Assembly: GCA_043799105.1 (NCBI GenBank)
Contig: JAZDOB010000010.1
Coordinates: 10,516 to 74,515 of the forward strand
Length of the DNA: 64,000 nucleotides
Source: Candidatus Zambryskiibacteriota bacterium
Lineage (GTDB): Bacteria; Patescibacteriota; Minisyncoccia; Phycocordibacterales; WO2-35-19
Direction: 5' to 3'
Under the pieces are notes generated by a model. That model was not told the DNA's origin. It saw nothing but the letters and a program-made list of their open reading frames with translations, and ran no database searches. Shown one piece after another: positions 6,375-37,363 of this stretch (position 1 is its first letter; every line of letters begins with the position of its first letter). The translations under genes and the position numbers were made by a program.

Positions 6375-7906
6375 AAGTTATATCTATAGGCACAGATAGG
6401 AAAATATTTGCAAAAGACTCTGCTGTCAGGCGTAGAGCTGTTAAGTACGGGGAATTTTTTGAAGAAATGCACGTAATAGTTTTTTCAAAAAGAAACCATA
6501 AACATTCAGATTTCCGATACCAAATATCAAATAAAATATTTGCTTACCCGACTAATTCAAAAAGTGGTTTTTTCTATATTTGGGATGCGTTTCGTATCGG
6601 AAAAACTCTAAAATCTAATATTAAAAACTCAAGTTGTGTTGTTTCTGGGGGTGATCCTTTTGAAACCGGGGCGGTAGGAGTATTGCTCAAACTATTTTTC
6701 AATTTACCTCTCCATATCCAAGTTCATACTGATTTAATGAACAAATACTTCAGTCAATTGTCTTTATTGAATAGGATTCGTTTTTTTATTGCAGAATTTA
6801 TTTTGAGATATTCCGATAGGGTTAGAGCCGTATCAGAAAGAGTCGGAAAATCAATCAGCCCATTTTCTAAAAGTATTGATATTTTGCCAATCAAGATGGA
6901 AATAGAAGAAAGAAATTATGAAAGTGTAAAAAAACCTTTTCCATTCACACTGCTTATGGTGTGCCGTTTGGAAAAAGAAAAAAATATAGAGACTGTTTTT
7001 CGTGCTGTTAAAACGGTAAAAAATAAAGATATCGGACTTTGTATAGTGGGAGACGGTTCGCAAAAAAACAATCTTGAAAACGTGGCTAAAAATATGGGGA
7101 TTTCGGAGAAAATAATTTTTGCCGGTTGGCAAAATAATTTGGCGCCATATTACAAAATGGCAGATATCTTTGTTTCTGCTTCTTTATATGAGGGCTATGG
7201 AATCTCAATCATGGAAGCCGCTTATTTTGGAAAGCCTTTGATTCTTTCTGAAACCGGAATAGCAGGAGATATTTTTAAAGAAAATGAATCGGCTTTTGTT
7301 TGTGACGCAAAAGATTCTGCCTGTTTTGCTAAAAATATTTTAGAAATTTATAAGGACAAAGACTTGGCGCAAAAAATGGGGCAATTGGCGAAAATATCTG
7401 CCGACAAGCATTTAATTTCTGAAAAGAATTATTTTAAAGAATATGCCGATTCTATCATAAAAACCGCTGCTAATTTTAAAGAAAGAAATTTTATTTCTAG
7501 GATTATAAATTTTAAAATAACGGCTTTTAGATCAATCAGATTTTTACGGTATTTTATATGCGGTATTATCTCCGCAGCCGTCAACATAATTTTACTGTAC
7601 ATATTTACCGATATTTGGAGCATATGGTATCTGTATTCTTCTATTTTTGCTTTTCTTATCGCTCTTATTGTAAGTTTTAATCTGCAAAAATTTGTGGTTT
7701 TCAAAGATGGTAATACCGATGGACTACACCGCCAGTTTTCCAAATTTTTTATTGCGGCTGTTTTGGGTGTCATTTCGAATACCATTTTGGTTTATGTTTT
7801 TACGGATATTATTAATGTTTGGTATATATTTTCCCAAATCATTGCTGGGATTTTTGTAATGGTTCAAAACTTTATTCTATACAGATTTTTTATATTCAAT
7901 AAATGA
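6371..7906 (+). CDS. GT4 glycosyltransferase fused to C-terminal GtrA-like polysaccharide-synthesis membrane domain
   Basis: GT4 core (…SASLYEGYGISIMEAAYFGKPLILSETGIAGDIF…). The C-terminal ~130 aa has 4 TM helices with the GtrA-like pattern (FLRYFICGIISAAVNIILLYIFTD…). Confidence 0.7.
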   Translation: MKVISIGTDRKIFAKDSAVRRRAVKYGEFFEEMHVIVFSKRNHKHSDFRYQISNKIFAYPTNSKSGFFYIWDAFRIGKTLKSNIKNSSCVVSGGDPFETGAVGVLLKLFFNLPLHIQVHTDLMNKYFSQLSLLNRIRFFIAEFILRYSDRVRAVSERVGKSISPFSKSIDILPIKMEIEERNYESVKKPFPFTLLMVCRLEKEKNIETVFRAVKTVKNKDIGLCIVGDGSQKNNLENVAKNMGISEKIIFAGWQNNLAPYYKMADIFVSASLYEGYGISIMEAAYFGKPLILSETGIAGDIFKENESAFVCDAKDSACFAKNILEIYKDKDLAQKMGQLAKISADKHLISEKNYFKEYADSIIKTAANFKERNFISRIINFKITAFRSIRFLRYFICGIISAAVNIILLYIFTDIWSIWYLYSSIFAFLIALIVSFNLQKFVVFKDGNTDGLHRQFSKFFIAAVLGVISNTILVYVFTDIINVWYIFSQIIAGIFVMVQNFILYRFFIFNK

Positions 7907-9339
7907 AAGACAAAATAATTTTAATCCAAATAAACACCGCGGAAGACCATTCGGAAAAAGTTTTGCCATTGGGTATTTTATCGGTTGGAAGCGCTCTCCA
8001 CAGAGCGGGTTTTGATGTTGAACTCATAAATATTACTGAAAAGGAAATTGAGAGAACCGTCGAATTTATAATAAAACAAGATCCTATGTTGGTGGGATTT
8101 TCTGTTATGACCGGCAGACAGACCAAACATAGCGCTGAAATGTCCAAGCTTGTAAAAAACAAATCGGGCGCACTTATTTTATGGGGCGGCATACATCCTT
8201 CGCTTTTACCCAAAGAGTGTTTGGCGGAAAATTACATAGATCTGGTTATTGTCGGCGAAGGGGAGGAAACTGCAGTGGAATTGGCCCAAAAATTGATGCA
8301 GAAAAAATCTTTAGACGGTATCTTGGGTTTGGGATTTAAAGGTGGTGGACAGATAAAATTAAATCCGGCGCGCCCATTTATAAAAAATTTAGATGAATGG
8401 CCCTGGGATTTTTCATTATTGCCTATGGAGAAGTATCTCTATAAACTCGGCAAATTTAAAAGAGTAATCGCTTACAAAACCAGCCGAGGATGCCCTTTTA
8501 ATTGCTCCTTCTGTTACAATCGCGCCTTTAATCAGAGTCGCTTTCGAGCCTGGTCAATTGACCATGTACAGAGAGACATCAGTTTCTTGAAAGAAAAATA
8601 TAAAATTGATGCCATTAAATTTTATGATGATAATTTTTTTGTTGATAAAAACCGAGCGCTGACGATTTTAAGAAAAACTAATCTACCTTCTCACCTTGAG
8701 GTCAGAATAGACATGATTGATGATAATCTTGCTAAAGAATTAAAAGATCAAAACGTCTTTGACTTGCTTATTGGGGCTGAGGCGGGTAGCGACCGCATCT
8801 TATCGCTTATTAATAAAAGGATCACGGTCGATCGCATTTATTCAGCAGTCAAATCTTTGGCCAAGTTTAACGTACCCGCCTGTTATTCGGTTATTGTCGG
8901 GTTGCCAACCGAGACCGAGGCCGAATTTGAAGCTACTATTAATTTGCTCTATCAGATATACAAGATTCATCCTGAGGCAACTTTTACTCTGGGGGCCTAC
9001 ATGCCATACCCGGGATCTTTGATGTATGATATGGCTATAAAAGCCGGATTTAAACCGCCGGTCAGGACTGAAGATTGGGGTAAAATTGACCGTTTCCGCA
9101 AAGACTTTTCTTCGCCTTGGGTGGATGGTGAATATGTTTGGCGAATTCGTGAATACTTTAAACTGCTAAAATTCAAACTGGGGCCGATTAATTCTTGGTT
9201 TGATTGGCGTTTGAAACATCGGTTTTTCGCTTGGCCCATTGATATTTATCTGGTAGAGTGGCTTTCAGGTCTGGCTATCGAGGAAAAAAGTTGGTTCGGG
9301 CATCTTTTGAGGAAAAGTTACAATTTTATCAAAAAATAG
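7903..9339 (+). CDS. B12-binding (class B) radical SAM enzyme, paralog 1
   Basis: N-terminal cobalamin-binding-type domain (KIILIQINT…LPLGILSVGSALHRAGFDVELINI). Radical SAM CxxxCxxC motif (SRGCPFNCSFCYN). Confidence 0.8.
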   Translation: MKDKIILIQINTAEDHSEKVLPLGILSVGSALHRAGFDVELINITEKEIERTVEFIIKQDPMLVGFSVMTGRQTKHSAEMSKLVKNKSGALILWGGIHPSLLPKECLAENYIDLVIVGEGEETAVELAQKLMQKKSLDGILGLGFKGGGQIKLNPARPFIKNLDEWPWDFSLLPMEKYLYKLGKFKRVIAYKTSRGCPFNCSFCYNRAFNQSRFRAWSIDHVQRDISFLKEKYKIDAIKFYDDNFFVDKNRALTILRKTNLPSHLEVRIDMIDDNLAKELKDQNVFDLLIGAEAGSDRILSLINKRITVDRIYSAVKSLAKFNVPACYSVIVGLPTETEAEFEATINLLYQIYKIHPEATFTLGAYMPYPGSLMYDMAIKAGFKPPVRTEDWGKIDRFRKDFSSPWVDGEYVWRIREYFKLLKFKLGPINSWFDWRLKHRFFAWPIDIYLVEWLSGLAIEEKSWFGHLLRKSYNFIKK

Positions 9340-9356
9340 GTTAAAATCTTCTTGTT

Positions 9357-9581
9357 ATGGTTAAAATATCTATAAATAAAAAAGAGTGTATTGGTTGCAG
9401 TTTTTGCACTGATTGTGCCCCGGAGATATTTGAAATTGATGAACAGGATTTTAAATGCAAGATAAAACAGGATGGAAAGCTGGTTAATTCAATGTCAGTT
9501 AATTTATCGGCAGAACAACTGAAGCAAGTGAAAGAGGCTAAAGATGGTTGTGCGGTTCAAGCCATTGAATTGGAAGAATAA
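9357..9581 (+). CDS. Ferredoxin, single [4Fe-4S] cluster (Pyrococcus/Thermotoga-type)
   Basis: 74 aa. CIGCSFCTDCAPEIFEIDE… plus a distal Cys (DGCAVQAIELEE). Classic monocluster ferredoxin layout. Confidence 0.75.
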   Translation: MVKISINKKECIGCSFCTDCAPEIFEIDEQDFKCKIKQDGKLVNSMSVNLSAEQLKQVKEAKDGCAVQAIELEE

Positions 9582-9583
9582 AA

Positions 9584-10618
9584 ATGAAGCTTCTAGTTAT
9601 AACGCAAAAAGTTGACAAAGAGGATTCGGTTCTGGGCTTCTTTCACGGTTGGATTATAGAATTTTCAAAAAAATTTGAAAAGGTTGTTGTTATATGTCTG
9701 GAAAAAGGGGAATACGAATTACCCGGAAATGTTAAAGTTTTTTCTCTGGGAAAAGAATCTAAAAAAAGTAAAATTAAATATGTAAAAAACTTTTTTAACC
9801 TAATTCTTGGTTTACATAAAGAATATGATTCCGTTTTCGTCCATATGAACCAAGAATATATCGTTCTGGGAGGATTTCTCTGGAAAGTTATGAGAAAGAA
9901 GGTATTTTTTTGGAGAAATCACCCGAACGGAAATATTTTTACCAGAGTGGCAGTTTGGTTTTCTGACAAAGTTTTTTGTACTTCTAAATTTGCTTTTGTC
10001 GCTGGATACAAAAAGACGAGTTTAATGCCAGTGGGAGTCGATATTGAAAGATTTAAAGATTTAAAGATTGAAAGATTAAAAAAATCAATCCTGTTTTTGA
10101 GCAGGATGAGTCCAATAAAGAGACCGGATTTGCTTATTGAAGCTCTGGAAATTTTAAATAAGAAAAATATAAATTTTGTCTGCGATTTTTATGGAGACCC
10201 ATTGCCCAAAGATGAAAATTATTATAATTTGCTAAAAAATAGAGTAAAAGAATTGGGTTTGGAAAACAAAGTAAGTTTTTATAAAAGTGTGGCAAATTAT
10301 GAAACGCCCAAAATTTATAACGAGCATAACATCTTTGTGAATCTGACACCGACAGGAAGTTTTGACAAAACCATATTAGAAGCAGCGATTTGCGGATGTT
10401 TGCTGGTCATTGCAAATAAATTTCTTGTTGGAGAAATTGATAAAAAAATGATTACGGAAAAAAGAACCCCCGGTGATGTTGCCAAAGTAATTGATTTTTG
10501 GCTAAATGCTAATGATGAGGAAAAAAGAAAAGTTTCGGAAGAACTCCAAAAATATGTTTTGGAAAATCACAGCTTGGATGTTTTAATGAATAAACTAGTG
10601 AAGCTGATTATTGTTTAA
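9584..10618 (+). CDS. Glycosyltransferase (GT-B fold, GT4/GT1-like)
   Basis: Overall GT-B two-domain pattern; the C-terminal half has the GT4-like nucleotide-sugar binding region. Confidence 0.55.
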   Translation: MKLLVITQKVDKEDSVLGFFHGWIIEFSKKFEKVVVICLEKGEYELPGNVKVFSLGKESKKSKIKYVKNFFNLILGLHKEYDSVFVHMNQEYIVLGGFLWKVMRKKVFFWRNHPNGNIFTRVAVWFSDKVFCTSKFAFVAGYKKTSLMPVGVDIERFKDLKIERLKKSILFLSRMSPIKRPDLLIEALEILNKKNINFVCDFYGDPLPKDENYYNLLKNRVKELGLENKVSFYKSVANYETPKIYNEHNIFVNLTPTGSFDKTILEAAICGCLLVIANKFLVGEIDKKMITEKRTPGDVAKVIDFWLNANDEEKRKVSEELQKYVLENHSLDVLMNKLVKLIIV

Positions 10619-10641
10619 GATCAACAAATTAAAGTCAAAAA

Positions 10642-11385
10642 ATGATTAATAACAAGAAAATAATTATAGTATTGCCAGCCTACAACGCAGCGAAAACACT
10701 GAAAGTAACACTTGACGCTATACCCAAGGGCATAGTAGACGATATTATACTTGTTGATGATGCAAGTAGTGATAACACCGTAGAAGTAGCCAAAAAGCTT
10801 AGTCTGAAAGTGTTTGTTCATTCAAAAAATTTAGGTTATGGCGGTAATCAAAAAACTTGCTATAGGGAAGCTTTGAAATTGGGTGCCGATATTGTCGTAA
10901 TGGTTCATCCAGATTTTCAATATGATCCGGTATTTATCCCGGAAATGATAATGCCGATAGCGAATAATGAATGTGATGCGGTGTTCGGCTCTAGGATGAA
11001 AATTCGCGGGAATGCTCTAGTGGGGGGTATGCCCCGTTGGAAATTTTTGGCTAATATTTTTTTAACCAAAATAGAGAACTTTGTTTTGAACAACAACTTG
11101 ACCGAATATCATTCGGGTTTCCGTGCTTATAACAGGAGAGTTATGATGTTACCCTTGGGTTTGAATTCTGACGATTTTGTGTTTGATACGGAAATTATTG
11201 TACAAATGAAAATCGCTGGTTTGAAAATTAAGGAAATTCCCATTTCAACTAAATATTTTAAGGAAGCATCCCAGATAAATTTTAAAAGAAGTGTTCAGTA
11301 TGGACTTTCCATTTTGAATGTTATGAAAAAATATCTGCTTTTTAAATACAAGATAATAAATTACGAGCAGTTTCAAATTCAATGA
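10642..11385 (+). CDS. GT2 glycosyltransferase (polyprenol-phosphate sugar synthase-like, DPM1/GtrB-type)
   Basis: IIIVLPAYNAAKTL…DDIILVDDASSDNT…: GT2 DxD region. Confidence 0.8.
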   Translation: MINNKKIIIVLPAYNAAKTLKVTLDAIPKGIVDDIILVDDASSDNTVEVAKKLSLKVFVHSKNLGYGGNQKTCYREALKLGADIVVMVHPDFQYDPVFIPEMIMPIANNECDAVFGSRMKIRGNALVGGMPRWKFLANIFLTKIENFVLNNNLTEYHSGFRAYNRRVMMLPLGLNSDDFVFDTEIIVQMKIAGLKIKEIPISTKYFKEASQINFKRSVQYGLSILNVMKKYLLFKYKIINYEQFQIQ

Positions 11386-12461
11386 AGAATTTTTTAATAA
11401 AAAACAAATTTTTGGTGGCGATCATGCTTTTTGCCGTTTTAAATATTTTTGTTTCTTATTATTATATCGGATATAATCCCGACCTTGGGAAAAAAGATGC
11501 TTACGAATATTCTGAAGCTGCCAGATTTTTGCAGGGTAATTCAGCAAATGACAATATGCAGCTAAACAGAGTGTTGACCACACCGCTCTTCCTCTACTCT
11601 TCCATTTCTGTCAACTATTTTTTTAATGATTTCAGTTTAAGTTTTGCTACTGTTAATGTTGTTTTTTATTTTCTTTGTGTTTTTGTTTTTTATCTTCTGG
11701 CATTTGAAATATATAAAGAAGAAAAAGTGGCAATATTAAGCTCTATTTTAGTTTCCTCTAATTTTTACATGATAGATCCTGGCAATTTGCACCTAGCTGA
11801 TTTTGGCGGTTGGTTTTTCTTCATTCTCGGCACTTTTTTAGCCGTTAAATACATAAATACATTTAATAGAAAGTTTTATTATCTATCAATTATAGTTTCG
11901 GCAGTCGGTGTTTTATTCAAAGAATATGGCGGTTTGGCGGTGGGGAATTTAATTTTGCTTATTTGCATTTCTGATATTCCATGGAGACAAAAATTAAAGG
12001 ATGTTTTAATTGCTGTTTCTTTGGTTTTGGCGCCTATTTTGTCATTTCACATTTTTATTTATTTGAAATATCACTACTTGTATTTTGACAGATATGTGGC
12101 TGTCGGGCGGTATGTCTCTCTTGAGACTCCAAAGAATTTTATTCTGCTCGTAAAAATTTTGGGTTGGCTGTTTTCTTTTGGTTGGTTGGCTTTTTGTTAT
12201 GGCGCATGGAAGGAATTAAAAACAAAAGATAAGAGGCGAATAAAAATTCTACTGGCCATTTTACCCGTCACTTTAACATTTTATTTTTGGCCGTCCATCA
12301 CCCAAAGATTAGCTGTGATGTTTATGATGTGGTTAGCTCTTATCGCCGGTTTCGGACTCTCCAAAATAAAATGGTATTGGTTGTATTTGTTCTTGGTAAT
12401 CTATATTGTATTTAACTATAATATAGAATCTCTAATTAAAATAATTAACCTGCCTTTTTAA
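11382..12461 (+). CDS. Polytopic membrane protein, probable GT-C-type glycosyltransferase or flippase-like component
   Basis: ~10 predicted TM helices and no soluble domain. Embedded in the glycosylation operon with coupled start. Confidence 0.4.
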   Translation: MKNFLIKNKFLVAIMLFAVLNIFVSYYYIGYNPDLGKKDAYEYSEAARFLQGNSANDNMQLNRVLTTPLFLYSSISVNYFFNDFSLSFATVNVVFYFLCVFVFYLLAFEIYKEEKVAILSSILVSSNFYMIDPGNLHLADFGGWFFFILGTFLAVKYINTFNRKFYYLSIIVSAVGVLFKEYGGLAVGNLILLICISDIPWRQKLKDVLIAVSLVLAPILSFHIFIYLKYHYLYFDRYVAVGRYVSLETPKNFILLVKILGWLFSFGWLAFCYGAWKELKTKDKRRIKILLAILPVTLTFYFWPSITQRLAVMFMMWLALIAGFGLSKIKWYWLYLFLVIYIVFNYNIESLIKIINLPF

Positions 12462-12471
12462 CCCATAAATC

Positions 12472-13188: not shown

Positions 13189-13195
13189 AACAATA

Positions 13196-13225
13196 CAGCT
13201 CGCTCCATGTTTTCGGAGCGAGCTG
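13196..13225. terminator. Bidirectional intrinsic terminator between convergent genes
   Basis: Perfect hairpin cagctcgctcc-atgttttc-ggagcgagctg with U-rich flanks on both strands. It lies between the + gene ending at 13188 and the - gene ending at 13229. Confidence 0.6.
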
Positions 13226-13228
13226 TTA

Positions 13229-13810: not shown

Positions 13811-13913
13811 ATTTTCACCCTGCCTTTCTGTTGTAGATTATAGCATACTCTGTTTAAAAATGCAAGAGGTGTTTTATGTTTATTTTAGGCCATTTTTTTG
13901 ATAAACTTTTTGT

Positions 13914-15401: not shown

Positions 15402-15421
15402 ATTCAAGAACCTCTCTGATT

Positions 15422-17022: not shown

Positions 17023-17113
17023 ATATATTAAAGTAATATATCATGAATTCATACAAATTTCATATCTAAAAAATTATCTTTATATAAAGTTGTTTTTATG
17101 GTAGCCTTTTTGT

Positions 17114-18841: not shown

Positions 18842-18854
18842 TAGAACTAAGTTT

Positions 18855-21472: not shown

Positions 21473-21473
21473 A

Positions 21474-22106: not shown

Positions 22107-22116
22107 AAAATTGTAA

Positions 22117-24014: not shown

Positions 24015-24016
24015 AT

Positions 24017-27939: not shown

Positions 27940-27942
27940 AAA

Positions 27943-29445: not shown

Positions 29446-29446
29446 T

Positions 29447-30928: not shown

Positions 30929-30978
30929 TGTTCACCATCATACTTTATAAATATAAAAAAGTATACTCAAGAGCCTTA

Positions 30979-31007
30979 TTGACACCCTATGACACTTCTC
31001 ATATACT
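30979..31007 (+). promoter_or_regulatory. Sigma70-like promoter TTGACA-17nt-TATACT driving the HTH gene (near-leaderless)
   Basis: TTGACA at 30979-30984 and TATACT at 31002-31007 with a 17-nt spacer. The ATG at 31018 is ~11 nt past the -10. Confidence 0.5.
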
Positions 31008-31017
31008 TAATGCGACT

Positions 31018-31266
31018 ATGACTGATGAAATAAAATCGCATGCTGTTTATACTACAGGAGAGGCAGAAAAGCTTCTAAAAGTGAGCAATAGCACTATGAA
31101 AAGGCTACTCAAGCATGGTATACTGCGTGCCAATAAAGTAGGCAGACAGTATCGTATTTTAGGCAAAGAGATTTTAAGAGTTATTTCGCCACAACTTGAG
31201 GGAAAAGCTATCGAATCGTATCTGGGTTTGAAACACAAAGTTGTCGATAAAATTAATAAATGGTAA
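31018..31266 (+). CDS. Small HTH DNA-binding protein, excisionase/HTH_17 (MerR-superfamily) type
   Basis: MTDEIKSHAVYTTGEAEKLLKVSNSTMKRLLKHGILRANKVGRQYRILGKEI (GRxYRI motif). The ORF-track start at 30928 (TTG) would overlap the divergent gene start and run through the promoter, so the ATG at 31018 is preferred. Stop overlaps the ABC gene start. Confidence 0.5.
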   Translation: MTDEIKSHAVYTTGEAEKLLKVSNSTMKRLLKHGILRANKVGRQYRILGKEILRVISPQLEGKAIESYLGLKHKVVDKINKW

Positions 31267-33071
31267 AGAATATGCCTCAAGAAACATCAAAAAAATCGCG
31301 GATTATTTCCTTTCTCAGACTTTACAATTATGGTTTTGGCAAATATAAGTGGCACATAGTTTTTTTGGCGATCTTGGGGTTGTTGGCGGGGTTGCTTGAA
31401 GGAATAGGTGTCAATGCTCTCATCCCACTTTTCTCTTTTATTGTTGGAAGCGGCAGTACGGGAGATGACATAATTTCAAAAACTATAGGAAAAGTATTCC
31501 AGTACACTCACGTGCCCTTTACACTGAAGTACCTACTTATCTTTATGTGTTTGCTTTTTATTCTTCGGGCAGTGGTTTCAATTGCCAGTGGTTATATCAG
31601 AGCCCGTATTGCCAGTGATTATTCCGAAAAGACCAGAAGCGATCTGTTTGCTAAAACTCTTAAAACTAAATGGTCCTATCTCTTAACTCAAAAAATGGGC
31701 CATCTACAGACCGTGCTCATGACCAATGTGTTTAACACAGAAGTGCTTCTGAGTCATATCTCCGGAGTAGTGATTATTGTAAGTAGTCTTGTCGTTTACA
31801 TGTTTATTGCCATAAACATATCAATGTCTACGACACTCTTTACTATTGCGGTGACTGGCGTCTTTTTTGTGGTGTTTAAACCGCTTATGTACAACACTAA
31901 AGTTGCCAATAATGAAATCGAAGGCCTCAACAGGACGGTGGCTCATTTTGTTAATGAAAACGTTCTGGGTATGAAGACAGTAAAAGTTATGCTGGCTGAT
32001 AATAAGGTGATTGATATCGGGAAAGGATATTTTCGGTCCTTGAAAGACCTGACTTCCAGAATTAACTTTTTAAGGGTTATTCCAGATTCGCTAATGCAGC
32101 CTTTTGGGATAATTTTTATAATGATTCTTTTTGCGATCTCCTACAAATTGCCCGGTTTTAACGTTGCCTCTTTTGCCGCAGTAGTTTATCTGATTCAACG
32201 TATATTCCTTTATTTTCAGCAATTACAAGCGAGTGCTCAAATGATAAACGATACGACTCCTTATTTAAGAACTCTTATAAAATTTGAACAGGAAGCAAAC
32301 TCGTTTGAAGAAAAATATCATGGTACAGAGGAGTTTTCTTTCAGTAAAGAACTTGAATTTAAAAATGTTTCTTTTTCGTATCAAAATAGCAAACCGATTT
32401 TAAATGGACTGAACTTTAGAATTAATCAGGGTGAGATGGTTGGACTCATCGGTCCGTCCGGCGCCGGCAAGACTACTATTGTGGATCTTATGCTTCGGCT
32501 TTTTGAACCGACGGGGGGAAATATTTTGGTTGACGGGCGGAATATTTTGGATATTGATTTACGTTCGTGGAGGGAAAATATAGGATATGTGTCGCAAGAT
32601 ATTTTTCTTATGAATGATACGATTGAGAACAATATAAGATTTTATAATTCTGATTTGAAAAATGAGGAATTGATTGAGGCTGCCAAGGCGGCAAATATCT
32701 ATGATTTCGTCGAAACCCTCAAAGAAGGTTTTAATACGATTATTGGAGATCGTGGTGTTACGCTTTCGGCTGGGCAGAGGCAAAGGATAGTAATTGCCAG
32801 GGTATTGGCTCGCAAACCACAGTTTCTTATCCTTGACGAAGCCACCAGCGCCCTTGATAATGAGTCTGAGGTTCAGATTCAAGAGGTCATCGAGAATCTA
32901 AAAGGGAAGATGACCGTTTTGGTGATCGCTCACAGACTTTCAACCATTACCAATGCCGACAAACTTCTGGCGCTTGATGGTGGTAAAATTGTTGAAGAAG
33001 GCAAACCCGAGGAACTCCTCAAAAACGAAGATTCTTATTTCTATAAAATAAATAACCTCAAAAATATATGA
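31260..33071 (+). CDS. ABC exporter, fused permease-ATPase (MsbA/lipid-glycan flippase-like)
   Basis: 6-TM N-terminal domain. Walker A GPSGAGKTT. ABC signature LSAGQRQRIVIARVL. Walker B ILDEATSALD. Confidence 0.85.
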   Translation: MVKNMPQETSKKSRIISFLRLYNYGFGKYKWHIVFLAILGLLAGLLEGIGVNALIPLFSFIVGSGSTGDDIISKTIGKVFQYTHVPFTLKYLLIFMCLLFILRAVVSIASGYIRARIASDYSEKTRSDLFAKTLKTKWSYLLTQKMGHLQTVLMTNVFNTEVLLSHISGVVIIVSSLVVYMFIAINISMSTTLFTIAVTGVFFVVFKPLMYNTKVANNEIEGLNRTVAHFVNENVLGMKTVKVMLADNKVIDIGKGYFRSLKDLTSRINFLRVIPDSLMQPFGIIFIMILFAISYKLPGFNVASFAAVVYLIQRIFLYFQQLQASAQMINDTTPYLRTLIKFEQEANSFEEKYHGTEEFSFSKELEFKNVSFSYQNSKPILNGLNFRINQGEMVGLIGPSGAGKTTIVDLMLRLFEPTGGNILVDGRNILDIDLRSWRENIGYVSQDIFLMNDTIENNIRFYNSDLKNEELIEAAKAANIYDFVETLKEGFNTIIGDRGVTLSAGQRQRIVIARVLARKPQFLILDEATSALDNESEVQIQEVIENLKGKMTVLVIAHRLSTITNADKLLALDGGKIVEEGKPEELLKNEDSYFYKINNLKNI

Positions 33072-34096
33072 AGACCGACAATATTTCAAAGACAGATTTT
33101 CTAAAGAATAAAACGGTTTTAATAACCGGAGGCACCGGTTCTTTCGGTAAAAATTTCGCCAAACATTTGCTTGAAAATTCCGATTTAAAAAAACTGATTA
33201 TTTTTAGCCGTGATGAGCTAAAGCAATTTAATATGAGTGCCGAAATAAAAGATGAACGGGTGCGATTTTTTTTGGGGGATATCCGGGATTTACCTCGTCT
33301 GGAGAGAGCTTTTAACGGTGTTGATATCGTAGTACATGCCGCAGCTCTCAAACAAGTGCCAATGCTTGAGTACAATCCTTTTGAAGCTGTAAAAACTAAT
33401 GTTTTAGGCAGTCAAAATGTTATTGATGCCGCCATAGATAAAAAAGTCAAAAAAGTAATTTTAGTTTCCAGTGACAAGGCGGCGCACCCCGTTAATCTTT
33501 ATGGTTCAACCAAACTTTGCGCCGAGAAGCTTTTTATCAGCGGGAATTCATATGCCGGGCAAAAAACAAGATTTAGCTGTGTCAGATACGGAAATGTGGT
33601 TGGCAGCCGCGGAAGTATTGTTGATATCCTTATCAATAATCCGAATATACCCACGGTCAATATAACTCACGAAGAGATGACCAGATTTTGGATTGGTCTG
33701 GATCAGACTTTTAAGTTGGTACTTTTCGCTTTGAAAAATATGATTGGCGGAGAAATATTTGTACCTAAAATTCCAAGCATGAAATTGGTCAATCTCTTTG
33801 ATTGTTTGGCGCCGAAAGCCAAGAAAGTTTTTATCGGTATTAGGCCCGGGGAGAAATTGCATGAAGTGCTTTTGACTGCCGAAGAGGCGCGCCATAGTTT
33901 TGAACTTCAAGGTTATTACGTTATTTTACCCGAATACTGTGAAATCTCCAGCGTAGAGAAAAAATTCAAAGGAATTCTTTCCAAAGCAAAAAAACTGCCA
34001 CCCGACTTTTCTTTTATGAGTCACACTAATAAAAATTGGCTGACAAATGAAGAACTTGCCAAGTTTATAGAAATTAAAAAGAAAAAACATAGTTAA
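33068..34096 (+). CDS. UDP-N-acetylglucosamine 4,6-dehydratase (PseB/FlaA1/CapD family)
   Basis: KTVLITGGTGSFGKNF…YGSTKLCAEKL… Size and motif pattern of inverting UDP-GlcNAc 4,6-dehydratases. Confidence 0.75.
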   Translation: MKTDNISKTDFLKNKTVLITGGTGSFGKNFAKHLLENSDLKKLIIFSRDELKQFNMSAEIKDERVRFFLGDIRDLPRLERAFNGVDIVVHAAALKQVPMLEYNPFEAVKTNVLGSQNVIDAAIDKKVKKVILVSSDKAAHPVNLYGSTKLCAEKLFISGNSYAGQKTRFSCVRYGNVVGSRGSIVDILINNPNIPTVNITHEEMTRFWIGLDQTFKLVLFALKNMIGGEIFVPKIPSMKLVNLFDCLAPKAKKVFIGIRPGEKLHEVLLTAEEARHSFELQGYYVILPEYCEISSVEKKFKGILSKAKKLPPDFSFMSHTNKNWLTNEELAKFIEIKKKKHS

Positions 34097-34104
34097 AAAT
34101 TTTT

Positions 34105-35205
34105 ATGATTCCATATGGCAAACAATCAATAGATGGCAAAGATATAAGAGCAGTTGAATCTGTCCTTAAATCGGATTGGCTCACTCAAGGGCCAAAAATT
34201 GCTGAATTTGAAAATGCCCTGGCTGATTATTGCGGAGCAAAGTTTGCAGTAGCTGTTTCTTCCGGCACTGTCGCACTTCATATCGCTTATCTTGCTTCTG
34301 GTCTGAAAGCTGGAGACGAAGTTGTCACAACCCCAAACACTTTTGTGGCTACCTCCAATATGCTTTTAGCCGTAGGTGCCAAACCAGTTTTTTGCGATAT
34401 TCACTCTGATACCTACAATATTGACGAAACAAAAATTGAAAAACTGATTACAAAAAAAACCAGAGCCATTGCGCCGGTGCATTTTGCAGGGATCCCTTGT
34501 GAAATGGACAAAATAATGAATATAGCAAGAAGACACAAACTCATTGTTATTGAAGATGCCTGCCATGCTTTAGGTGCAAAATATAAAAATAAAAAAATTG
34601 GCAGTATAGGCCATATGACCGTACTCAGTTTCCATCCGGTTAAATCAATTACCACTGGCGAAGGCGGGGCGATTTTAACCGACAATAAAAAATATTATGA
34701 GAGATTGAAATTATTAAGAAGCCATGGGATTTACAAAGATAAAAACGGAAAGAATATTATGACTGAAATGGGCTACAACTACAGGATAACTGATATACAG
34801 GCTTCCCTTGGCATTACTCAATTGAAAAAACTAGACAACTTCATTAAAAAAAGGAAACAAATTGTTTCTTGGTATAAGGAATTTTTACAGGACTGCAAGG
34901 AGATTATTCTTCCGGTGAACAATCCCGATTCTGCAAACCACATTTATATTATCAGAACTAAAAAAATAACGGACAGATTACCGCTCTATAATTTTCTGCG
35001 CAACGCAGGCGTTGGGGTCAATTTCCATTATCCAGCGGTTTATTCTCATCCTTATTACCAAAAGATTGGATATGCCGGTTTGAAATTGCCAATGGAGGAG
35101 GCTTATCAAAATTCTTGCGTCACTCTGCCTTGCTTCCCCGGTTTGTCTAGGGCTTTAATTAAACGAATAGCAAAATCAATAAATTCATTTTATGAATCCC
35201 GTTAG
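34105..35205 (+). CDS. DegT/DnrJ/EryC1/StrS-family PLP sugar aminotransferase (PseC/LegC-like)
   Basis: MIPYGKQSIDGKDIRAVESVLKSDWLTQGPKIAEFENALADYCGAKFAVAVSSGTVALHIA…SFHPVKSITTGEGG…. Confidence 0.8.
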   Translation: MIPYGKQSIDGKDIRAVESVLKSDWLTQGPKIAEFENALADYCGAKFAVAVSSGTVALHIAYLASGLKAGDEVVTTPNTFVATSNMLLAVGAKPVFCDIHSDTYNIDETKIEKLITKKTRAIAPVHFAGIPCEMDKIMNIARRHKLIVIEDACHALGAKYKNKKIGSIGHMTVLSFHPVKSITTGEGGAILTDNKKYYERLKLLRSHGIYKDKNGKNIMTEMGYNYRITDIQASLGITQLKKLDNFIKKRKQIVSWYKEFLQDCKEIILPVNNPDSANHIYIIRTKKITDRLPLYNFLRNAGVGVNFHYPAVYSHPYYQKIGYAGLKLPMEEAYQNSCVTLPCFPGLSRALIKRIAKSINSFYESR

Positions 35206-35241
35206 AAGTTAAGAGCTAATGGAATAAATAAAAACAAAAAT

Positions 35242-36681
35242 ATGAAAACTTCTAACGGGATGAAAAAAATTAAAATTTTAGCGATAAATGTTTGTCTGCG
35301 GCCAAGTAAGCCGCAAATTATGTTTCCTCTCGGCCTGGCCTATGTCTTAAGCGCCGTTCACCGAGCGGGCTATGATTTTGAATTGCTTGACTTGGATAAG
35401 GATAGAAAAAGCGACAAGGAGATTGAAAAGTTCTTGGCAGAAAAGGAGTTTGATGTAGTCGCTTTCGGTTGCATCGTGACTGGCTATAAAATGATAAAAA
35501 ATCTGAGCCGGATGGTAAGAAAAGCTAATAAGAAAGCCGTTATTATAGCCGGAAATTCCGTGGCCGACTCAATCCCGCGCATTCTTTTGTCAAAAACCGA
35601 AGTTGATGTGGCGGTAATAGGGGAAGGGGAGATAACTATTGTTGAAGTTTTAGATAGAATAAAAAATGGCAAGGCGCTTGACGGGGTTAAAGGAATTTGG
35701 TTTAAGCGCGGTGGAAAAATTTTTCAAAACCCAAACAGAGAAGCTATCAAAGATATAGATTCTATACCTTCACCCGTTTGGGATTTATTTGATATGGAAG
35801 CTTACATTAAAGGTTTCCAAGAGTTGATTAACGAACCTTTGCCTATGCCTAGAGAGCAGATTCGCTCTTTTTTGGTGAATGCGGCGAGAGGATGTCCGTT
35901 TCGTTGCACTTTTTGCTATCAAGTTTTTCAACATTATAATTACCGGCATCGTGGAGTGGATTCTATAATCAAAGAAATAAAAAAGTTGCAAAAAAAGTAC
36001 AAGATTAACTATATACTTTTTTGTGACGATCTATCTTTCCCTTCAAAGACTTTGCTTAAGGAATTTGTTGACAGAGTATTAAAAGAGAAATTAAAATTTT
36101 TTTGGACAGCTTCTTGTCGATCTGATTTATTCAATTCGGAAGAAGACGTGCCGTTGTTGAAACGAATAAAAAAATCAGGTTGCGAAGGCTTTGGTTTTTC
36201 TTTGGAATCGGCCAATAAAGAAATTCTAAAAGCCATGAATAAACATTTAGTTCCGGAAAATTTTGTCAGGCAAAAAAAATTGCTGGACAAGGCGGGCATA
36301 TCTTCATGGACAAGCTTAGTGCTTGGGTATCCAGAAGAAACAAAAAAAACCATAAAAGAGACTATGGATCTTTGTTACAAGTGCGACACCTATCCCAGTT
36401 CGGGTTATTTATTGCCCCAACCCGGAACGCCGATGTATAAGTATATATTTGATAAAGGCATAGCCAAAGACGAGGAAAAATATTTATTATCGCTTGGTGA
36501 TCGGCAAGATTTTAGGATTAATCTAACCAAGATGTCGGCAGAGGAATTTCAGGCAGAGGTAAAATATCACTTGTACCGGATTTCGAAAAAATTAAAGCTC
36601 GGTCTGGGTGAAGACAATCTTTTAAAGACGACCTCTTATAAAGGCATAACAGCAAAAAGAAGAGAAGAAGATAATAAATAA
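35242..36681 (+). CDS. B12-binding (class B) radical SAM enzyme, paralog 4
   Basis: KILAINVCLRPSKPQIMFPLGLAYVLSAVHRAGYDFELLDL. Radical SAM motif ARGCPFRCTFCYQ. Confidence 0.8.
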   Translation: MKTSNGMKKIKILAINVCLRPSKPQIMFPLGLAYVLSAVHRAGYDFELLDLDKDRKSDKEIEKFLAEKEFDVVAFGCIVTGYKMIKNLSRMVRKANKKAVIIAGNSVADSIPRILLSKTEVDVAVIGEGEITIVEVLDRIKNGKALDGVKGIWFKRGGKIFQNPNREAIKDIDSIPSPVWDLFDMEAYIKGFQELINEPLPMPREQIRSFLVNAARGCPFRCTFCYQVFQHYNYRHRGVDSIIKEIKKLQKKYKINYILFCDDLSFPSKTLLKEFVDRVLKEKLKFFWTASCRSDLFNSEEDVPLLKRIKKSGCEGFGFSLESANKEILKAMNKHLVPENFVRQKKLLDKAGISSWTSLVLGYPEETKKTIKETMDLCYKCDTYPSSGYLLPQPGTPMYKYIFDKGIAKDEEKYLLSLGDRQDFRINLTKMSAEEFQAEVKYHLYRISKKLKLGLGEDNLLKTTSYKGITAKRREEDNK

Positions 36682-36697
36682 AAGCTCATGCAATATA

Positions 36698-37249: not shown

Positions 37250-37363
37250 GGCTTGATTTAAAGCAGTGTTTATAATAGTATGCTTAAAATTACATGTCCA
37301 GTTTATTGAACATATATAAAACTCTAGAATAAATCAGTTTGCCGAGATCATCAAATAAAAAAG

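What the first reader, a model, noticed from the sequence alone, without database searches (positions are those of the whole stretch)
7903..36681. Four paralogous B12-binding radical SAM enzymes plus a ferredoxin embedded in one glycan-biosynthesis locus
Four genes (7903-9339, 19934-21472, 29447-30928 on the minus strand, 35242-36681) share the class-B radical SAM architecture: an N-terminal cobalamin-binding-like domain plus a C-P-x-x-C-x-F-C type cluster motif. They are interleaved with GT4/GT2/GT-C glycosyltransferases, a Pse/Leg-like sugar pathway and several FkbM/class-I methyltransferases. One paralog is followed 18 nt later by a monocluster ferredoxin (9357-9581), a plausible dedicated electron donor. 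Class-B radical SAM enzymes typically catalyse C-methylation or other chemistry at unactivated carbons. Four copies in a surface-glycan operon suggest extensive radical modification of the sugar units (C-methylated or branched sugars) on top of SAM-dependent O-/N-methylation, a glycan-tailoring system that is essentially uncharacterised.
Basis: partly seen in the sequence, partly recalled or inferred. Interest (0 to 1): 0.7.

Follow-up and report, generated by a model that had tools for sequence, protein, structure and literature searches.

The report
Four B12-radical-SAM enzymes tailoring surface sugars
A tiny-genome (CPR) bacterium carries a 46-kb surface-sugar gene cluster with four different vitamin-B12-type radical enzymes, two from uncharacterised families that sit beside pseudaminic-acid genes in many bacteria and archaea, pointing to an unknown step in making these sialic-acid-like sugars.

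Summary
All four ORFs carry a B12-binding domain, a Radical_SAM domain and a CxxxCxxC motif. A 74-aa single-cluster ferredoxin follows the first ORF after a 17-nt gap. The window comes from a Candidatus Zambryskibacteria (CPR) MAG and holds a 46-kb glycan locus.

The four are not recent duplicates. They are 24-30% identical and belong to four separate families, each tightly linked to its own sugar module:
- **Paralog 4** follows PseB-PseC. In its family, 29 of 30 well-flanked loci from many phyla, including cultured strains and methanogens, carry nonulosonic-acid genes within 10 kb. One member is fused to PseC.
- **Paralog 3** precedes a putative nonulosonic-acid transferase. Its family also sits in such clusters, from Pseudodesulfovibrio to Lokiarchaeia.
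- **Paralog 1** appears Patescibacteria-restricted, with conserved synteny. The ferredoxin is present in 3 of 6 loci.
- **Paralog 2** is rare and linked to a GT4-methyltransferase-Gmd module.

None reaches a curated family cutoff (BchE, HpnJ, PhpK, AprD4 and others). AlphaFold models match solved B12-radical-SAM structures.

Sugar tailoring is well supported by context. C-methylation and cobalamin binding remain inferences. No searched paper describes this. A testable link is to the unassigned "C10" ulosonic acids seen by mass spectrometry.

The parts
4177..50508 (.). Whole surface-glycan locus (46.3 kb). It runs from the first GT4 gene to the Wzy_C+TPR ligase/polymerase-like gene, and is flanked by SecF/DUF4015 and SecA.
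   Evidence: Pfam annotation of all ORFs; span computed; the same chromosomal site recurs in L087 and L088.
6371..7906 (+). GT4 glycosyltransferase fused to a C-terminal GtrA/DPMS transmembrane domain (4 TM). Its end overlaps the start of paralog 1 by 4 nt.
   Evidence: A GtrA-domain gene lies immediately upstream of the paralog 1 ortholog in L087, and upstream of the tandem rSAM pair in L083 and L089.
7903..9339 (+). Paralog 1 (478 aa), a class-B-type radical SAM. Every named relative is Patescibacterial.
   Evidence: Pfam; homologs at 59-79% identity; AF2 model pLDDT 84.7, with the 17 best PDB hits all B12-type rSAMs; N-domain matches TsrM and OxsB.
9357..9581 (+). Single-cluster ferredoxin (74 aa; C11, C14, C17 and C66 as ligands, plus C20 and C34). 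Candidate electron donor for paralog 1.
   Evidence: Fer4_13 41.9 bits and Fer4_15 38.4 bits, both above cutoff; sequence; homologs in L087 (41%) and L088 (52%, 7-nt gap after the rSAM), absent from three other loci.
9584..10618 (+). GT4 glycosyltransferase downstream of the ferredoxin; conserved partner of the paralog 1 module.
   Evidence: Orthologs at 62-64% in L087/L088 and 36-41% in L083/L089.
18855..19937 (+). GT4 glycosyltransferase; its end overlaps the start of paralog 2 by 4 nt.
   Evidence: A 30%-identical GT4 lies in the L090/L091 locus of the paralog 2 relative.
19934..21472 (+). Paralog 2 (512 aa), a class-B-type radical SAM with a family-specific linker of about 70 aa between the two domains. 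Rare family.
   Evidence: Pfam. Only about 15 full-length relatives among 1.84e9 representatives. The linker is present in all 13 aligned members. Context of the relative.
21474..23154 (+). Class-I methyltransferase (21474-22106) and GDP-mannose 4,6-dehydratase Gmd (22117-23154), directly downstream of paralog 2.
   Evidence: Gmd 396 bits; gaps of 1 and 10 nt; Gmd-like (47%) and MT-like (28%) genes in L090/L091.
27943..29445 (-). Capsule_synth-like protein (500 aa), a putative nonulosonic-acid (Pse) glycosyltransferase, 1 nt downstream of paralog 3.
   Evidence: PF05159 23.3 bits, above cutoff. Sub-threshold hit to the NCBIfam BFO_1060 glycosyltransferase family, E 4.9e-11. The same rSAM-then-Capsule_synth order occurs in Pseudodesulfovibrio L084 (46% identity).
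29447..30928 (-). Paralog 3 (493 aa), a class-B-type radical SAM from a family embedded in nonulosonic-acid clusters of bacteria and Asgard archaea.
   Evidence: Pfam; homologs at 51-86% identity; contexts L084, L085 and L086.
31260..33071 (+). Fused ABC exporter, first gene of the operon that diverges from paralog 3. It lies after the 331-nt intergenic region 30929-31259.
   Evidence: promoter-like site at 30979-31007 (11 of 12 matches, a consensus match only); the same ABC-...-PseB-PseC-rSAM order occurs in L002 and L003.
33068..35205 (+). PseB (33068-34096) and PseC (34105-35205), the first two enzymes of the pseudaminic-acid pathway.
   Evidence: TIGR03589 PseB 444.1 bits (cutoff 407.75); TIGR03588 PseC 443.2 bits (cutoff 423.5).
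35242..36681 (+). Paralog 4 (479 aa; GenBank start 6 codons later), a class-B-type radical SAM from a cross-domain family linked to Pse clusters. One member is fused to PseC.
   Evidence: Pfam; homologs; 505 genomic relatives; co-occurrence 29 of 30; fusion P0019; AF2 model pLDDT 91.3 and Foldseek hits.
38998..40828 (+). CTP_transf_3 cytidylyltransferase (38998-39780) and PseI pseudaminic acid synthase (39770-40828).
   Evidence: PF02348 129 bits; TIGR03586 PseI 452.1 bits (cutoff 340.25).
47076..48134 (+).
   Evidence: PF04055 plus PF13186. The C-terminal cluster domain matches BtrN, E 8.5e-7. Homologs at 42-45% occur in three Syntrophaceae nonulosonic-acid loci.

Best explanation
The window holds the 46-kb cell-surface glycan locus of a Candidatus Zambryskibacteria (CPR) bacterium. 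Four soluble enzymes, each with a cobalamin-type Rossmann domain and a radical-SAM barrel, act as cytoplasmic sugar-tailoring enzymes. Each serves its own sub-pathway.

- Paralog 4 acts in the pseudaminic-acid pathway, at or next to the PseC step. Its likely substrate is UDP-4-amino-4,6-dideoxy-L-AltNAc or a neighbouring intermediate.
- Paralog 3 acts on the same nonulosonic acid, or on its transfer step, together with a Capsule_synth-like transferase.
- Paralog 2 acts in a GDP-6-deoxyhexose branch (GT4-rSAM-methyltransferase-Gmd).
- Paralog 1 acts with a GT4::GtrA enzyme, and in this genome it takes electrons from the adjacent ferredoxin.

Proposed mechanism. The reduced [4Fe-4S] cluster cleaves SAM to a 5'-deoxyadenosyl radical. 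That radical removes a hydrogen from an unactivated sugar carbon. Methylcobalamin then delivers a methyl group, giving C-methylated sugars. For the Pse-linked pair the product would be a backbone-methylated 'ten-carbon' ulosonic acid.

What is shown: the domain architecture, the fold, the tight gene coupling, the conserved cross-phylum association with sugar genes, and the fusions. What is inferred: cobalamin binding, methyl transfer as the chemistry, and the exact substrates.
For: Architecture. PF02310 plus PF04055 score above cutoff in all four, each with one CxxxCxxC motif. The AF2 models (pLDDT 91.3 and 84.7) have TsrM, CysS, MgmA, OxsB, AprD4 and TokK as their 17 best PDB matches. The N-domains taken alone match the cobalamin domains of CysS and TokK (paralog 4) or TsrM and OxsB (paralog 1), and do not match AprD4.

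Coupling to sugar genes. There are 4-nt overlaps with GT4 genes for paralogs 1 and 2, a 1-nt gap to the Capsule_synth-like gene for paralog 3, and a 36-nt gap after PseC for paralog 4.

Conservation.
- Paralog 4 family: 505 genomic relatives. Of 30 loci at 46% identity or more with at least 15 kb of flank, 29 have PseI/B/C or a cytidylyltransferase within 10 kb, and 27 have a NeuB/PseI homolog. These include Acetivibrio, Pelosinus, Propionispira and Geomonas and Methanoculleus. P0019 is a PseC::rSAM fusion.
- Paralog 3 family: found in nonulosonic-acid clusters of Pseudodesulfovibrio, Lokiarchaeia and Patescibacteria.
- Paralog 1 family: conserved synteny in Parcubacteria, a ferredoxin in 3 of 6 loci, and five fusions to class-I methyltransferases.
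- Paralog 2: its relative lies in a Wzx/GT4/Gmd/methyltransferase locus.

Other support. None of the four has a TM segment. Every SSN group of B12-radical SAMs with a characterised member contains C-methyltransferases (PMC12931638). Unassigned Pse/Leg-type ulosonic acids with one extra backbone carbon have been reported (PMC8157484 and bioRxiv 10.64898/2026.04.20.719630).
Against: No member of any of the four families has been characterised. All NCBIfam hits are far below their cutoffs.

Cobalamin binding cannot be read from sequence, because class-B enzymes bind it base-off with no DxHxxG motif. AprD4 and ArsL have similar Rossmann domains but bind no cobalamin.

AprD4, a sugar diol-dehydratase, gives the best global TM-scores to both models (0.69-0.75).

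To my knowledge CPR bacteria generally cannot synthesise cobalamin, and this was not tested here. A B12-dependent pathway would therefore need an uptake system, which is not visible in this window.

The PseC fusion was seen only once. The ferredoxin is absent from half of the paralog 1 loci. I could not test whether the organisms that make 'C10' ulosonic acids carry these genes.
Confidence: 0.6

Rival explanations
1. The four enzymes do tailor sugars, but by radical chemistry other than methylation. Candidates are 1,2-diol dehydration/deoxygenation as in AprD4, epimerisation, ring contraction or rearrangement as in OxsB or HpnJ, or C-C bond formation. At least some of them might work without cobalamin, which would suit a CPR organism that cannot make B12.
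For: AprD4 acts on an aminosugar and has the highest TM-scores to both models (0.72/0.75 and 0.69-0.73). It is also the best profile hit in the PDB for both families. The 2026 review states that non-methylating members have no structural feature that sets them apart, and that AprD4 and ArsL lack cobalamin. In paralog 4 the GG(x)H segment of the B12 domain, seen in paralogs 1-3, is replaced by G-N-S.
Against: AprD4 aligns by sequence only to the radical-SAM core. The N-domains match true cobalamin-binding domains: CysS, TokK, TsrM, OxsB and a B12-mutase subunit. The AprD4 NCBIfam model scores 42-80 bits against a cutoff of 500. All characterised SSN groups contain C-methyltransferases. An extra-carbon Pse/Leg-type sugar with no known biosynthesis exists.
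Confidence: 0.25
2. The enzymes do not act on sugars. They would instead modify the polyprenyl carrier, membrane lipids, a tetrapyrrole or a peptide, as BchE, HpnJ/HpnR, the ladderane enzyme or RiPP methylases do. On this view they merely sit within a glycan locus.
For: By raw score the best NCBIfam hits are BchE, HpnJ, the ladderane enzyme, ApyD and P-methyltransferases. JGI annotates many homologs as 'anaerobic magnesium-protoporphyrin IX monomethyl ester cyclase'.
Against: All of those hits reach only 15-35% of the curated cutoffs. Neither the window nor the related loci contain tetrapyrrole, hopanoid, ladderane or precursor-peptide genes. The fusions are to PseC, to class-I methyltransferases and to a Glyphos_transf-like domain. 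The association with nonulosonic-acid genes is 29 of 30.
Confidence: 0.07
3. The clustering has no functional meaning. The genes would be decaying or inactive copies, or would be co-located by chance or by MAG mis-assembly.
For: The source is a metagenome-assembled genome. Paralog 2 has very few relatives.
Against: All four ORFs are intact with complete motifs. Three families are conserved at 50-88% identity across many independent assemblies. Synteny recurs in independent MAGs and isolate genomes. Start and stop codons overlap those of neighbouring genes.
Confidence: 0.03

Closest known systems
GenK, GenD1 and Fms7 (aminoglycoside sugar C-methyltransferases) and MoeK5: class-B radical SAMs that act on sugars
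   Same: They share the B12-domain plus radical-SAM architecture and are listed as Csp3 C-methyltransferases of the same superfamily (PMC12931638). From general knowledge, they methylate sugar carbons that carry O or N. That is the kind of chemistry proposed here.
   Different: They belong to antibiotic (secondary-metabolite) pathways of actinomycetes. The present families sit in primary cell-surface glycan loci of anaerobes, CPR bacteria and archaea. No sequence comparison with GenK or GenD1 was possible with these tools. None of the four reaches any curated family cutoff.
Fom3 (fosfomycin pathway), a class-B methylase acting on a cytidylylated substrate
   Same: It is a class-B C-methyltransferase. 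From general knowledge its substrate is nucleotide-linked (CMP-hydroxyethylphosphonate). That is a precedent for action on UDP- or CMP-linked sugars.
   Different: Fom3 acts on a phosphonate, not a sugar. No specific similarity was tested, and the context is unrelated.
AprD4 (PDB 6fd2), the radical SAM 1,2-diol dehydratase of apramycin biosynthesis
   Same: It gives the best global structural match to both models (TM 0.69-0.75, rmsd 4.4-4.8 over about 480 columns). It is of similar length (about 455 aa), has an aminosugar substrate, and gives the best PDB profile E-values.
   Different: AprD4 binds no cobalamin. Its N-domain is not detected by the N-domains of paralogs 1 and 4, which match true cobalamin domains instead. 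The AprD4 NCBIfam model scores 42-80 bits against a cutoff of 500.
TsrM, TokK, CysS, MgmA and OxsB: structurally solved B12-dependent radical SAM enzymes
   Same: They give the top Foldseek E-values (1e-23 to 1e-15) and share the three-part architecture, with homology in both the N-domain and the core.
   Different: Identity is only 15-20%. Their substrates are tryptophan, carbapenem or polyketide intermediates, a protein glutamine and a nucleoside. Most carry larger C-terminal extensions (530-730 aa against about 480).
BchE (anaerobic Mg-protoporphyrin IX monomethyl ester cyclase; COG1032)
   Same: It is the best raw NCBIfam hit for three of the four paralogs (129-163 bits). Automated pipelines give its name to many homologs.
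   Different: The scores are about a third of the 481-bit cutoff. There are no tetrapyrrole genes nearby, and the organisms are non-phototrophs. The label is a misannotation.
Canonical pseudaminic-acid pathway (PseB, PseC, PseH, PseG, PseI, PseF)
   Same: PseB, PseC and PseI pass their equivalog cutoffs, and a cytidylyltransferase is present.
   Different: No recognisable PseH or PseG was found. The cytidylyltransferase is not a PseF equivalog (26 bits against 206). The extra genes are two class-B rSAMs, an rSAM-SPASM, an ATP-grasp ligase, a FemAB-like protein, two further aminotransferases, an aldo/keto reductase and methyltransferases. The product is therefore probably a heavily modified Pse derivative.

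Membership tests
Class B (cobalamin-dependent) radical SAM enzymes | Radical-SAM core with a CxxxCxxC [4Fe-4S] motif | tested here: met
   PF04055 scores 67-85 bits (cutoff 29.5) in all four. Each has one CxxxCxxC motif, at residues 197, 264, 230 and 218.
Class B (cobalamin-dependent) radical SAM enzymes | N-terminal Rossmann-type B12-binding domain | tested here: met
   PF02310 scores 59.8-83.4 bits (cutoff 32.1) and covers profile positions 10-121 (40-119 for paralog 3). The N-domains taken alone hit the cobalamin domains of CysS and TokK, or TsrM and OxsB, at E about 2e-3.
Class B (cobalamin-dependent) radical SAM enzymes | Overall fold like solved B12-dependent radical SAM enzymes | tested here: met
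   AF2 models of paralog 4 (pLDDT 91.3) and paralog 1 (84.7) have TsrM, CysS, MgmA, OxsB, AprD4 and TokK as their 17 best PDB hits. Paralogs 2 and 3 were not modelled.
Class B (cobalamin-dependent) radical SAM enzymes | Actual binding of cobalamin (base-off) and its use in catalysis | not testable with these tools
   No diagnostic sequence motif exists. AprD4 and ArsL show that a similar domain can lack cobalamin. Purified protein is needed.
Class-B C-methyltransferases | Methyl transfer to carbon, with SAH and 5'-deoxyadenosine as co-products | not testable with these tools
   This is inferred only from the statement that every characterised SSN group contains C-methyltransferases.
BchE (TIGR02026) | Score at or above the curated equivalog cutoff of 481.35 bits | tested here: not met
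   Scores are 130.9, 140.8, 129.0 and 163.0 bits.
Lipid-tailoring class-B enzymes (HpnJ TIGR03471, HpnR TIGR04367, ladderane TIGR04072) | Score at or above the curated cutoffs (577.6, 650 and 360 bits) | tested here: not met
   Best scores are 147 (HpnJ), 111 (HpnR) and 126 (ladderane) bits. No hopanoid or ladderane genes occur in any context examined.
P-methyltransferases (PhpK TIGR04479, Sden_1168 NF038361) | Score at or above the curated cutoffs (600 and 575 bits) | tested here: not met
   Best scores are 124 and 165 bits.
AprD4 family diol-dehydratases (NF033070) | Score at or above the 500-bit cutoff, with homology along the full length | tested here: not met
   Scores are 54.7, 80.0, 46.5 and 42.4 bits. 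PDB profile alignments to AprD4 cover only the radical-SAM core. Global fold similarity is nevertheless high.
Pseudaminic-acid biosynthesis cluster | PseB, PseC and PseI equivalogs present | tested here: met
   PseB 444.1 bits (cutoff 407.75), PseC 443.2 (423.5) and PseI 452.1 (340.25).
Pseudaminic-acid biosynthesis cluster | PseH (N-acetyltransferase), PseG (UDP-sugar hydrolase) and PseF (CMP-Pse synthetase) present | tested here: not met
   No GNAT or PseG-type hit occurs anywhere in the locus. The cytidylyltransferase scores 26.3 bits on PseF (cutoff 205.7). A FemAB_IMCC1989-like protein (142.5 bits, cutoff 250) may stand in as the N-acyltransferase.
Single-cluster [4Fe-4S] ferredoxin | Fer4_13/Fer4_15 domain with CxxCxxC plus a distal Cys | tested here: met
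   Scores are 41.9 and 38.4 bits (cutoffs 24.5 and 22.4). The ligands are C11, C14, C17 and C66.
Dedicated ferredoxin partner of paralog 1 | Conserved adjacency to orthologs of paralog 1 | tested here: inconclusive
   Present in the window, L087 and L088. Absent from L083, L089 and the P0184 locus.

The most novel reading that the evidence does not exclude
The two Pse-cluster families (paralogs 3 and 4) are the missing enzymes that add a carbon to the nonulosonic-acid backbone. Their products would be the unassigned 'C10' Pse/Leg-type ulosonic acids seen by mass spectrometry in Magnetospirillum and Methanococcus. This would be a widespread, anaerobe-biased branch of sialic-acid-like sugar biosynthesis running from CPR bacteria to methanogens and Asgard archaea. 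It would also mean that CPR bacteria with minimal genomes depend on cobalamin supplied by their community or host to build their surface coat.
Probability: 0.3. Interest if true: 0.8.

Novelty: new variant of a known kind. Interest (0 to 1): 0.66.

Why it matters
Nonulosonic acids (pseudaminic and legionaminic acids) coat flagella, S-layers and capsules. They are targets for vaccines, phages and immune evasion. Their known biosynthesis uses no radical chemistry.

This work points to a radical-SAM enzyme family that accompanies PseB/PseC/PseI in dozens of phyla. It is sometimes fused to PseC and has never been characterised. That marks an unrecognised pathway step and probably a new sugar structure.

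It also gives a concrete gene candidate for the 'higher-carbon' ulosonic acids that two mass-spectrometry surveys could not explain. Cultured, tractable carriers are available for testing: Acetivibrio, Propionispira, Geomonas and Methanoculleus.

For radical-SAM enzymology it adds four unexplored class-B groups with a predictable substrate class.

For CPR biology it shows that a genome under extreme reduction still keeps five radical-SAM genes in a 46-kb glycan locus. This implies that surface-glycan chemistry, and possibly scavenged B12, matter to the episymbiotic lifestyle.

Tried and rejected
Ferredoxin and synteny statistics for paralog 1 therefore rest on only six loci.

2. A contig look-up for the DUF4015 ORF, meant to show the contig upstream of the window, found no record. 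The 11.7 kb of the source contig outside the window was not examined.

3. Membership in BchE, HpnJ, HpnR, the ladderane enzyme, PhpK, Sden_1168, ApyD, BzaD, MgmA or AprD4 families was considered and rejected on curated cutoffs.

4. The idea that the four genes are recent tandem paralogs was rejected. Identity is 24-30%, and the families have different phyletic ranges.

5. I tested whether the methyltransferase domain fused to paralog 1 orthologs is the window's MT_21474. The similarity is weak (24-41% over 39-103 residues), so they are not clearly orthologous.

6. Ten literature searches found no paper linking radical SAM enzymes to pseudaminic or nonulosonic acid biosynthesis, or to CPR glycan loci. 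A 2026 review of B12-radical SAMs does not contain the words sugar, glycan or polysaccharide.

7. Rfam and tRNA scans of the window found nothing. The ORF-poor 3' end is explained by a long ORF that runs off the window.

8. The promoter and terminator scan gave counts close to the shuffled expectation and is not used as evidence.

Full report
**1. The observation**

ORFs lie exactly at 7903-9339(+), 19934-21472(+), 29447-30928(-) and 35242-36681(+). All four score above the Pfam gathering cutoffs for an N-terminal B12-binding domain (PF02310: 75.6, 83.4, 59.8 and 62.8 bits; cutoff 32.1). They also do so for a Radical_SAM core (PF04055: 82.5, 84.8, 67.4 and 74.7 bits; cutoff 29.5).

Each has a single CxxxCxxC motif: CPFNCSFC, CPNRCGFC, CPQLCTYC and CPFRCTFC.

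The ORF at 9357-9581 is a 74-aa Fer4_13/Fer4_15 ferredoxin with C11-x2-C14-x2-C17 plus C66. It lies 17 nt after paralog 1 and 2 nt before the next GT4 gene.

- seven GT4 genes, one of them fused to a GtrA transmembrane domain;
- three short GT2 genes and two PMT-type GT-C proteins;
- Gmd, and FkbM and class-I methyltransferases;
- an ABC exporter and a Wzy_C+TPR protein.

PseB, PseC and PseI pass their NCBIfam equivalog cutoffs. The locus spans 4177-50508 (46.3 kb) between SecF/DUF4015 and SecA.

**2. Source**

Exact-sequence look-up places three of the paralogs, the ferredoxin and GatB on one 75,771-bp contig of a Candidatus Zambryskibacteria MAG (Patescibacteria/CPR). GenBank labels the paralogs only as 'radical SAM protein'. 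GenBank starts paralog 4 six codons later (473 aa).

**3. Four families, not four copies**

Pairwise identity among the four is 24-30%. Each has its own relatives.

*Paralog 4.* It belongs to a large family that keeps 50-55% identity in Omnitrophota, Bacillota, Desulfobacterota, Pseudomonadota and the archaeon Methanoculleus horonobensis. A scan of 185,579 species genomes confirmed 505 relatives.

I ran tblastn with the window's proteins against the best 80 loci. Among members at 46% identity or more with at least 15 kb of flank:
- 29 of 30 have PseI, PseB, PseC or the cytidylyltransferase within 10 kb;
- 27 of 30 have a NeuB/PseI homolog.

These genes usually lie on the same strand, 0-3 kb away. 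Orders include PseB-PseC-rSAM, PseB-rSAM-cytidylyltransferase-PseI in Acetivibrio, and PseI-rSAM in Geomonas and Syntrophaceae. Genomes have at most a few NeuB genes, so chance co-occurrence in a 20-kb window would be of the order of 1%. That figure is my estimate, not a computed one.

In Methanoculleus the gene abuts a complete Pse cluster. In a Falkowbacteria MAG one 834-aa protein is a fusion: residues 1-368 match PseC at 65% and residues 367-830 match paralog 4 at 67%. I saw this fusion only once.

*Paralog 3.* Its family is 51-86% identical in Patescibacteria, Lokiarchaeia, Promethearchaeota, Pseudodesulfovibrio, Omnitrophica, Actinobacteria and Elusimicrobiota. All three contexts examined are nonulosonic-acid clusters:
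- Pseudodesulfovibrio has NeuB ... rSAM then Capsule_synth, the same adjacency as in the window, with 46% identity between the Capsule_synth proteins.
- Lokiarchaeia has the gene beside PseC-PseB.
- Another Patescibacterium has it directly after PseC.

The window's Capsule_synth-like neighbour (27943-29445) has a sub-threshold hit to the BFO_1060 glycosyltransferase family. From my own knowledge that is the Tannerella nonulosonic-acid transferase family. I therefore read this gene as a putative Pse transferase.

*Paralog 1.* Its family is 59-79% identical, and every named source is Patescibacterial. In five other loci it sits in GT4-rich clusters that carry one or two further B12-radical-SAM genes of other families (32% identity or less to any window paralog).

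A GtrA-domain gene lies upstream in three of these loci, immediately upstream in one. The chromosomal site SecD-SecF-small ORF-DUF4015-~570 aa protein precedes the locus in two of them.

A ferredoxin homolog is present in two of the five. In L087 it is 41% identical and one gene downstream. In L088 it is 52% identical and 7 nt after the rSAM. It is absent from three, and one of those has a nitroreductase-fold gene instead. Five family clusters are fused to a C-terminal class-I methyltransferase domain.

*Paralog 2.* It is rare. Among 1.84 billion representatives only about 15 align full-length (63, 47, 43% ...). The rest split into two stretches around a family-specific linker of about 70 aa.

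Its 47% relative lies in a Wzx/GT4/deacetylase/methyltransferase locus. That locus has a Gmd homolog (47%), a GT4 (30%) and a methyltransferase (28%) matching the window's GT4-rSAM-MT-Gmd block.

**4. Architecture and family membership**

None of the four reaches any curated NCBIfam cutoff. For example, BchE scores 129-163 bits against 481, HpnJ at most 147 against 578, Sden_1168 at most 165 against 575, and AprD4 at most 80 against 500. The JGI label 'anaerobic Mg-protoporphyrin IX monomethyl ester cyclase' on many homologs is therefore a generic COG-level misannotation.

AlphaFold models of paralog 4 (53-sequence alignment; pLDDT 91.3, pTM 0.89) and paralog 1 (pLDDT 84.7) show a Rossmann domain, a partial TIM barrel and a helical C-terminus. 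In both cases the 17 best PDB matches are TsrM, CysS, MgmA, OxsB, AprD4 and TokK, followed by MiaB and RimO.

AprD4 gives the best TM-scores (0.69-0.75). By sequence, however, AprD4 aligns only to the core. The N-domains taken alone hit the cobalamin domains of CysS and TokK, or TsrM, OxsB and a B12-mutase subunit.

A 2026 review (PMC12931638) makes four relevant points:
- these enzymes bind cobalamin base-off, without a DxHxxG motif;
- AprD4 and ArsL do not bind it;
- there are more than 100 SSN groups, and most are unexplored;
- every group with a characterised member contains C-methyltransferases.

The class-B fold is therefore established. Cobalamin binding and methyl transfer are not.

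**5. How it most likely works**

All four proteins lack TM segments, and each is tightly coupled to a sugar gene:

| Paralog | Neighbour | Spacing |
|---|---|---|
| 1 | GT4::GtrA | 4-nt overlap |
| 2 | GT4 | 4-nt overlap |
| 3 | Capsule_synth-like gene | 1-nt gap |
| 4 | PseC | 36-nt gap |

I infer four cytoplasmic tailoring steps on nucleotide-linked or lipid-linked sugars, one per sub-pathway. The PseC fusion places paralog 4 at or next to the UDP-4-amino-4,6-dideoxy-L-AltNAc step.

The most probable chemistry is radical C-methylation. A 5'-deoxyadenosyl radical abstracts a hydrogen, and methylcobalamin then transfers a methyl group.

The rest of the Pse module suggests a heavily decorated sugar. 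It contains an ATP-grasp ligase, a FemAB_IMCC1989-like protein, two extra aminotransferases, an aldo/keto reductase, methyltransferases and an rSAM-SPASM. No recognisable PseH, PseG or PseF is present.

**6. A testable connection**

Two mass-spectrometry studies report Pse/Leg-type ulosonic acids with one extra backbone carbon. The marker is m/z 311.10 instead of 297.09, the CMP-sugars occur in a series spaced by CH2, and the extra mass is not lost the way an O-methyl would be. They were seen in Magnetospirillum gryphiswaldense and, at lower level, in Methanococcus. No structure or gene has been assigned (PMC8157484 and bioRxiv 10.64898/2026.04.20.719630).

A backbone C-methylase in nonulosonic-acid clusters would explain such species. 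I could not check whether those organisms carry orthologs.

**7. Rivals**

- Non-methylating radical sugar chemistry, possibly without cobalamin. This is supported by the AprD4 fold similarity and by the CPR lifestyle. Probability 0.25.
- Non-sugar substrates. This is contradicted by context, by the fusions and by the sub-cutoff scores. Probability 0.07.
- Chance or decay. This is contradicted by conservation and gene coupling. Probability 0.03.

**8. Novelty and verdict**

The enzyme class is known, and sugar-directed members exist in antibiotic pathways. In ten searches of the held library I found no description of class-B radical SAMs as conserved components of pseudaminic/nonulosonic-acid clusters, or of CPR glycan loci. 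The 2026 review does not mention sugars at all.

I rate this a new variant of a known kind.

Limits of this analysis:
- One planned scan failed, so paralog 1 statistics rest on six loci and paralog 2 on one relative.
- All functional statements beyond architecture and association are inference.

Noticed in passing
window 47076-48134 (+): A fifth radical SAM in the same locus. It is a SPASM/twitch type (352 aa), and only its C-terminal cluster domain matches BtrN, an aminocyclitol dehydrogenase (E 8.5e-7). Homologs at 42-45% identity occur in three Syntrophaceae nonulosonic-acid loci (L035, L038, L055).
   Followed up: partly
window 40825-46974 (+): A decoration module after PseI. It contains an ATP-grasp/L-amino-acid-ligase-like protein, a class-I methyltransferase, a 301-aa ORF with no family, a DegT of the PLP_IMCC1989 type, a FemAB_IMCC1989-like protein (142.5 bits, cutoff 250) and a glutamate-1-semialdehyde-aminomutase-like class-III aminotransferase. 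Together these suggest an amino-acylated, methylated Pse derivative.
   Followed up: partly
window 38090-39780 and 45661-46974; loci L005, L006, L012, L017, L048, L053, L055, L086: A trio of aldo/keto reductase, CTP_transf_3 cytidylyltransferase and class-III aminotransferase recurs in nonulosonic-acid clusters of unrelated phyla. Its role is unknown.
   Followed up: no
window 36698-37973 (-): Two tandem DUF218 genes on the opposite strand interrupt the Pse operon. A strong bidirectional terminator-like hairpin lies between them (37362-37395; 12-13 bp stem, 7 GC pairs). A perfect 12/12 sigma-70-like site lies at 38061-38034. DUF218 genes also occur in the Pse clusters of L002 and L086.
   Followed up: no
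window 45-4141; L087 1847-7380; L088 2109-7751: The glycan locus occupies a conserved chromosomal site in related Parcubacteria: SecD-SecF, a small ORF, DUF4015, then a protein of about 550-590 aa. In the window that protein (2426-4141) has weak TraD/TrwB coupling-protein-like hits. In L087 and L088 a Bac_transf initiating transferase lies just upstream.
   Followed up: partly
window 7903-9339, residues 11-24 of paralog 1: The family-invariant residues N11, D15, E18, L21, P22 and G24, together with the nearly invariant H16 and S17, lie in the loop after the first beta-strand of the B12 domain. Residues 14-18 are the only low-confidence stretch of that domain in the AF2 model (pLDDT below 50). 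His-on B12 proteins carry their DxHxxG motif in roughly this position. It could be a cofactor- or partner-binding loop.
   Followed up: no
L002 20715-21748 (Falkowbacteria MAG): A 972-aa protein that runs off the locus end combines B12-binding and Radical_SAM domains with a Glyphos_transf-like domain. It is a second fusion linking a class-B rSAM to a glycosyl/glycerophosphate-transferase-like domain in a Pse cluster.
   Followed up: no
proteins P0169, P0224, P0225, P0230, P0231; L083 10001-12196: Orthologs of paralog 1 are fused to a C-terminal class-I SAM methyltransferase domain (about 721-731 aa). This puts a radical SAM and a conventional methyltransferase in one polypeptide.
   Followed up: partly
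L089 13601-14245: A paralog 1 locus that lacks the ferredoxin carries a nitroreductase-fold flavoprotein gene among the GT genes. It may be an alternative electron donor.
   Followed up: no
homolog lists: JGI automated annotation names many members of these families 'anaerobic magnesium-protoporphyrin IX monomethyl ester cyclase' or 'YgiQ family'. Scores against the BchE model are about a third of its cutoff, so these labels are misleading.
   Followed up: yes
window 17114-18841 (+) and 13229-13810 (-): A 575-aa protein with about 11 predicted TM segments and a 193-aa protein both have no Pfam or NCBIfam hit, yet sit inside the glycan locus. The former could be an unrecognised polymerase, flippase or GT-C enzyme.
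   Followed up: no
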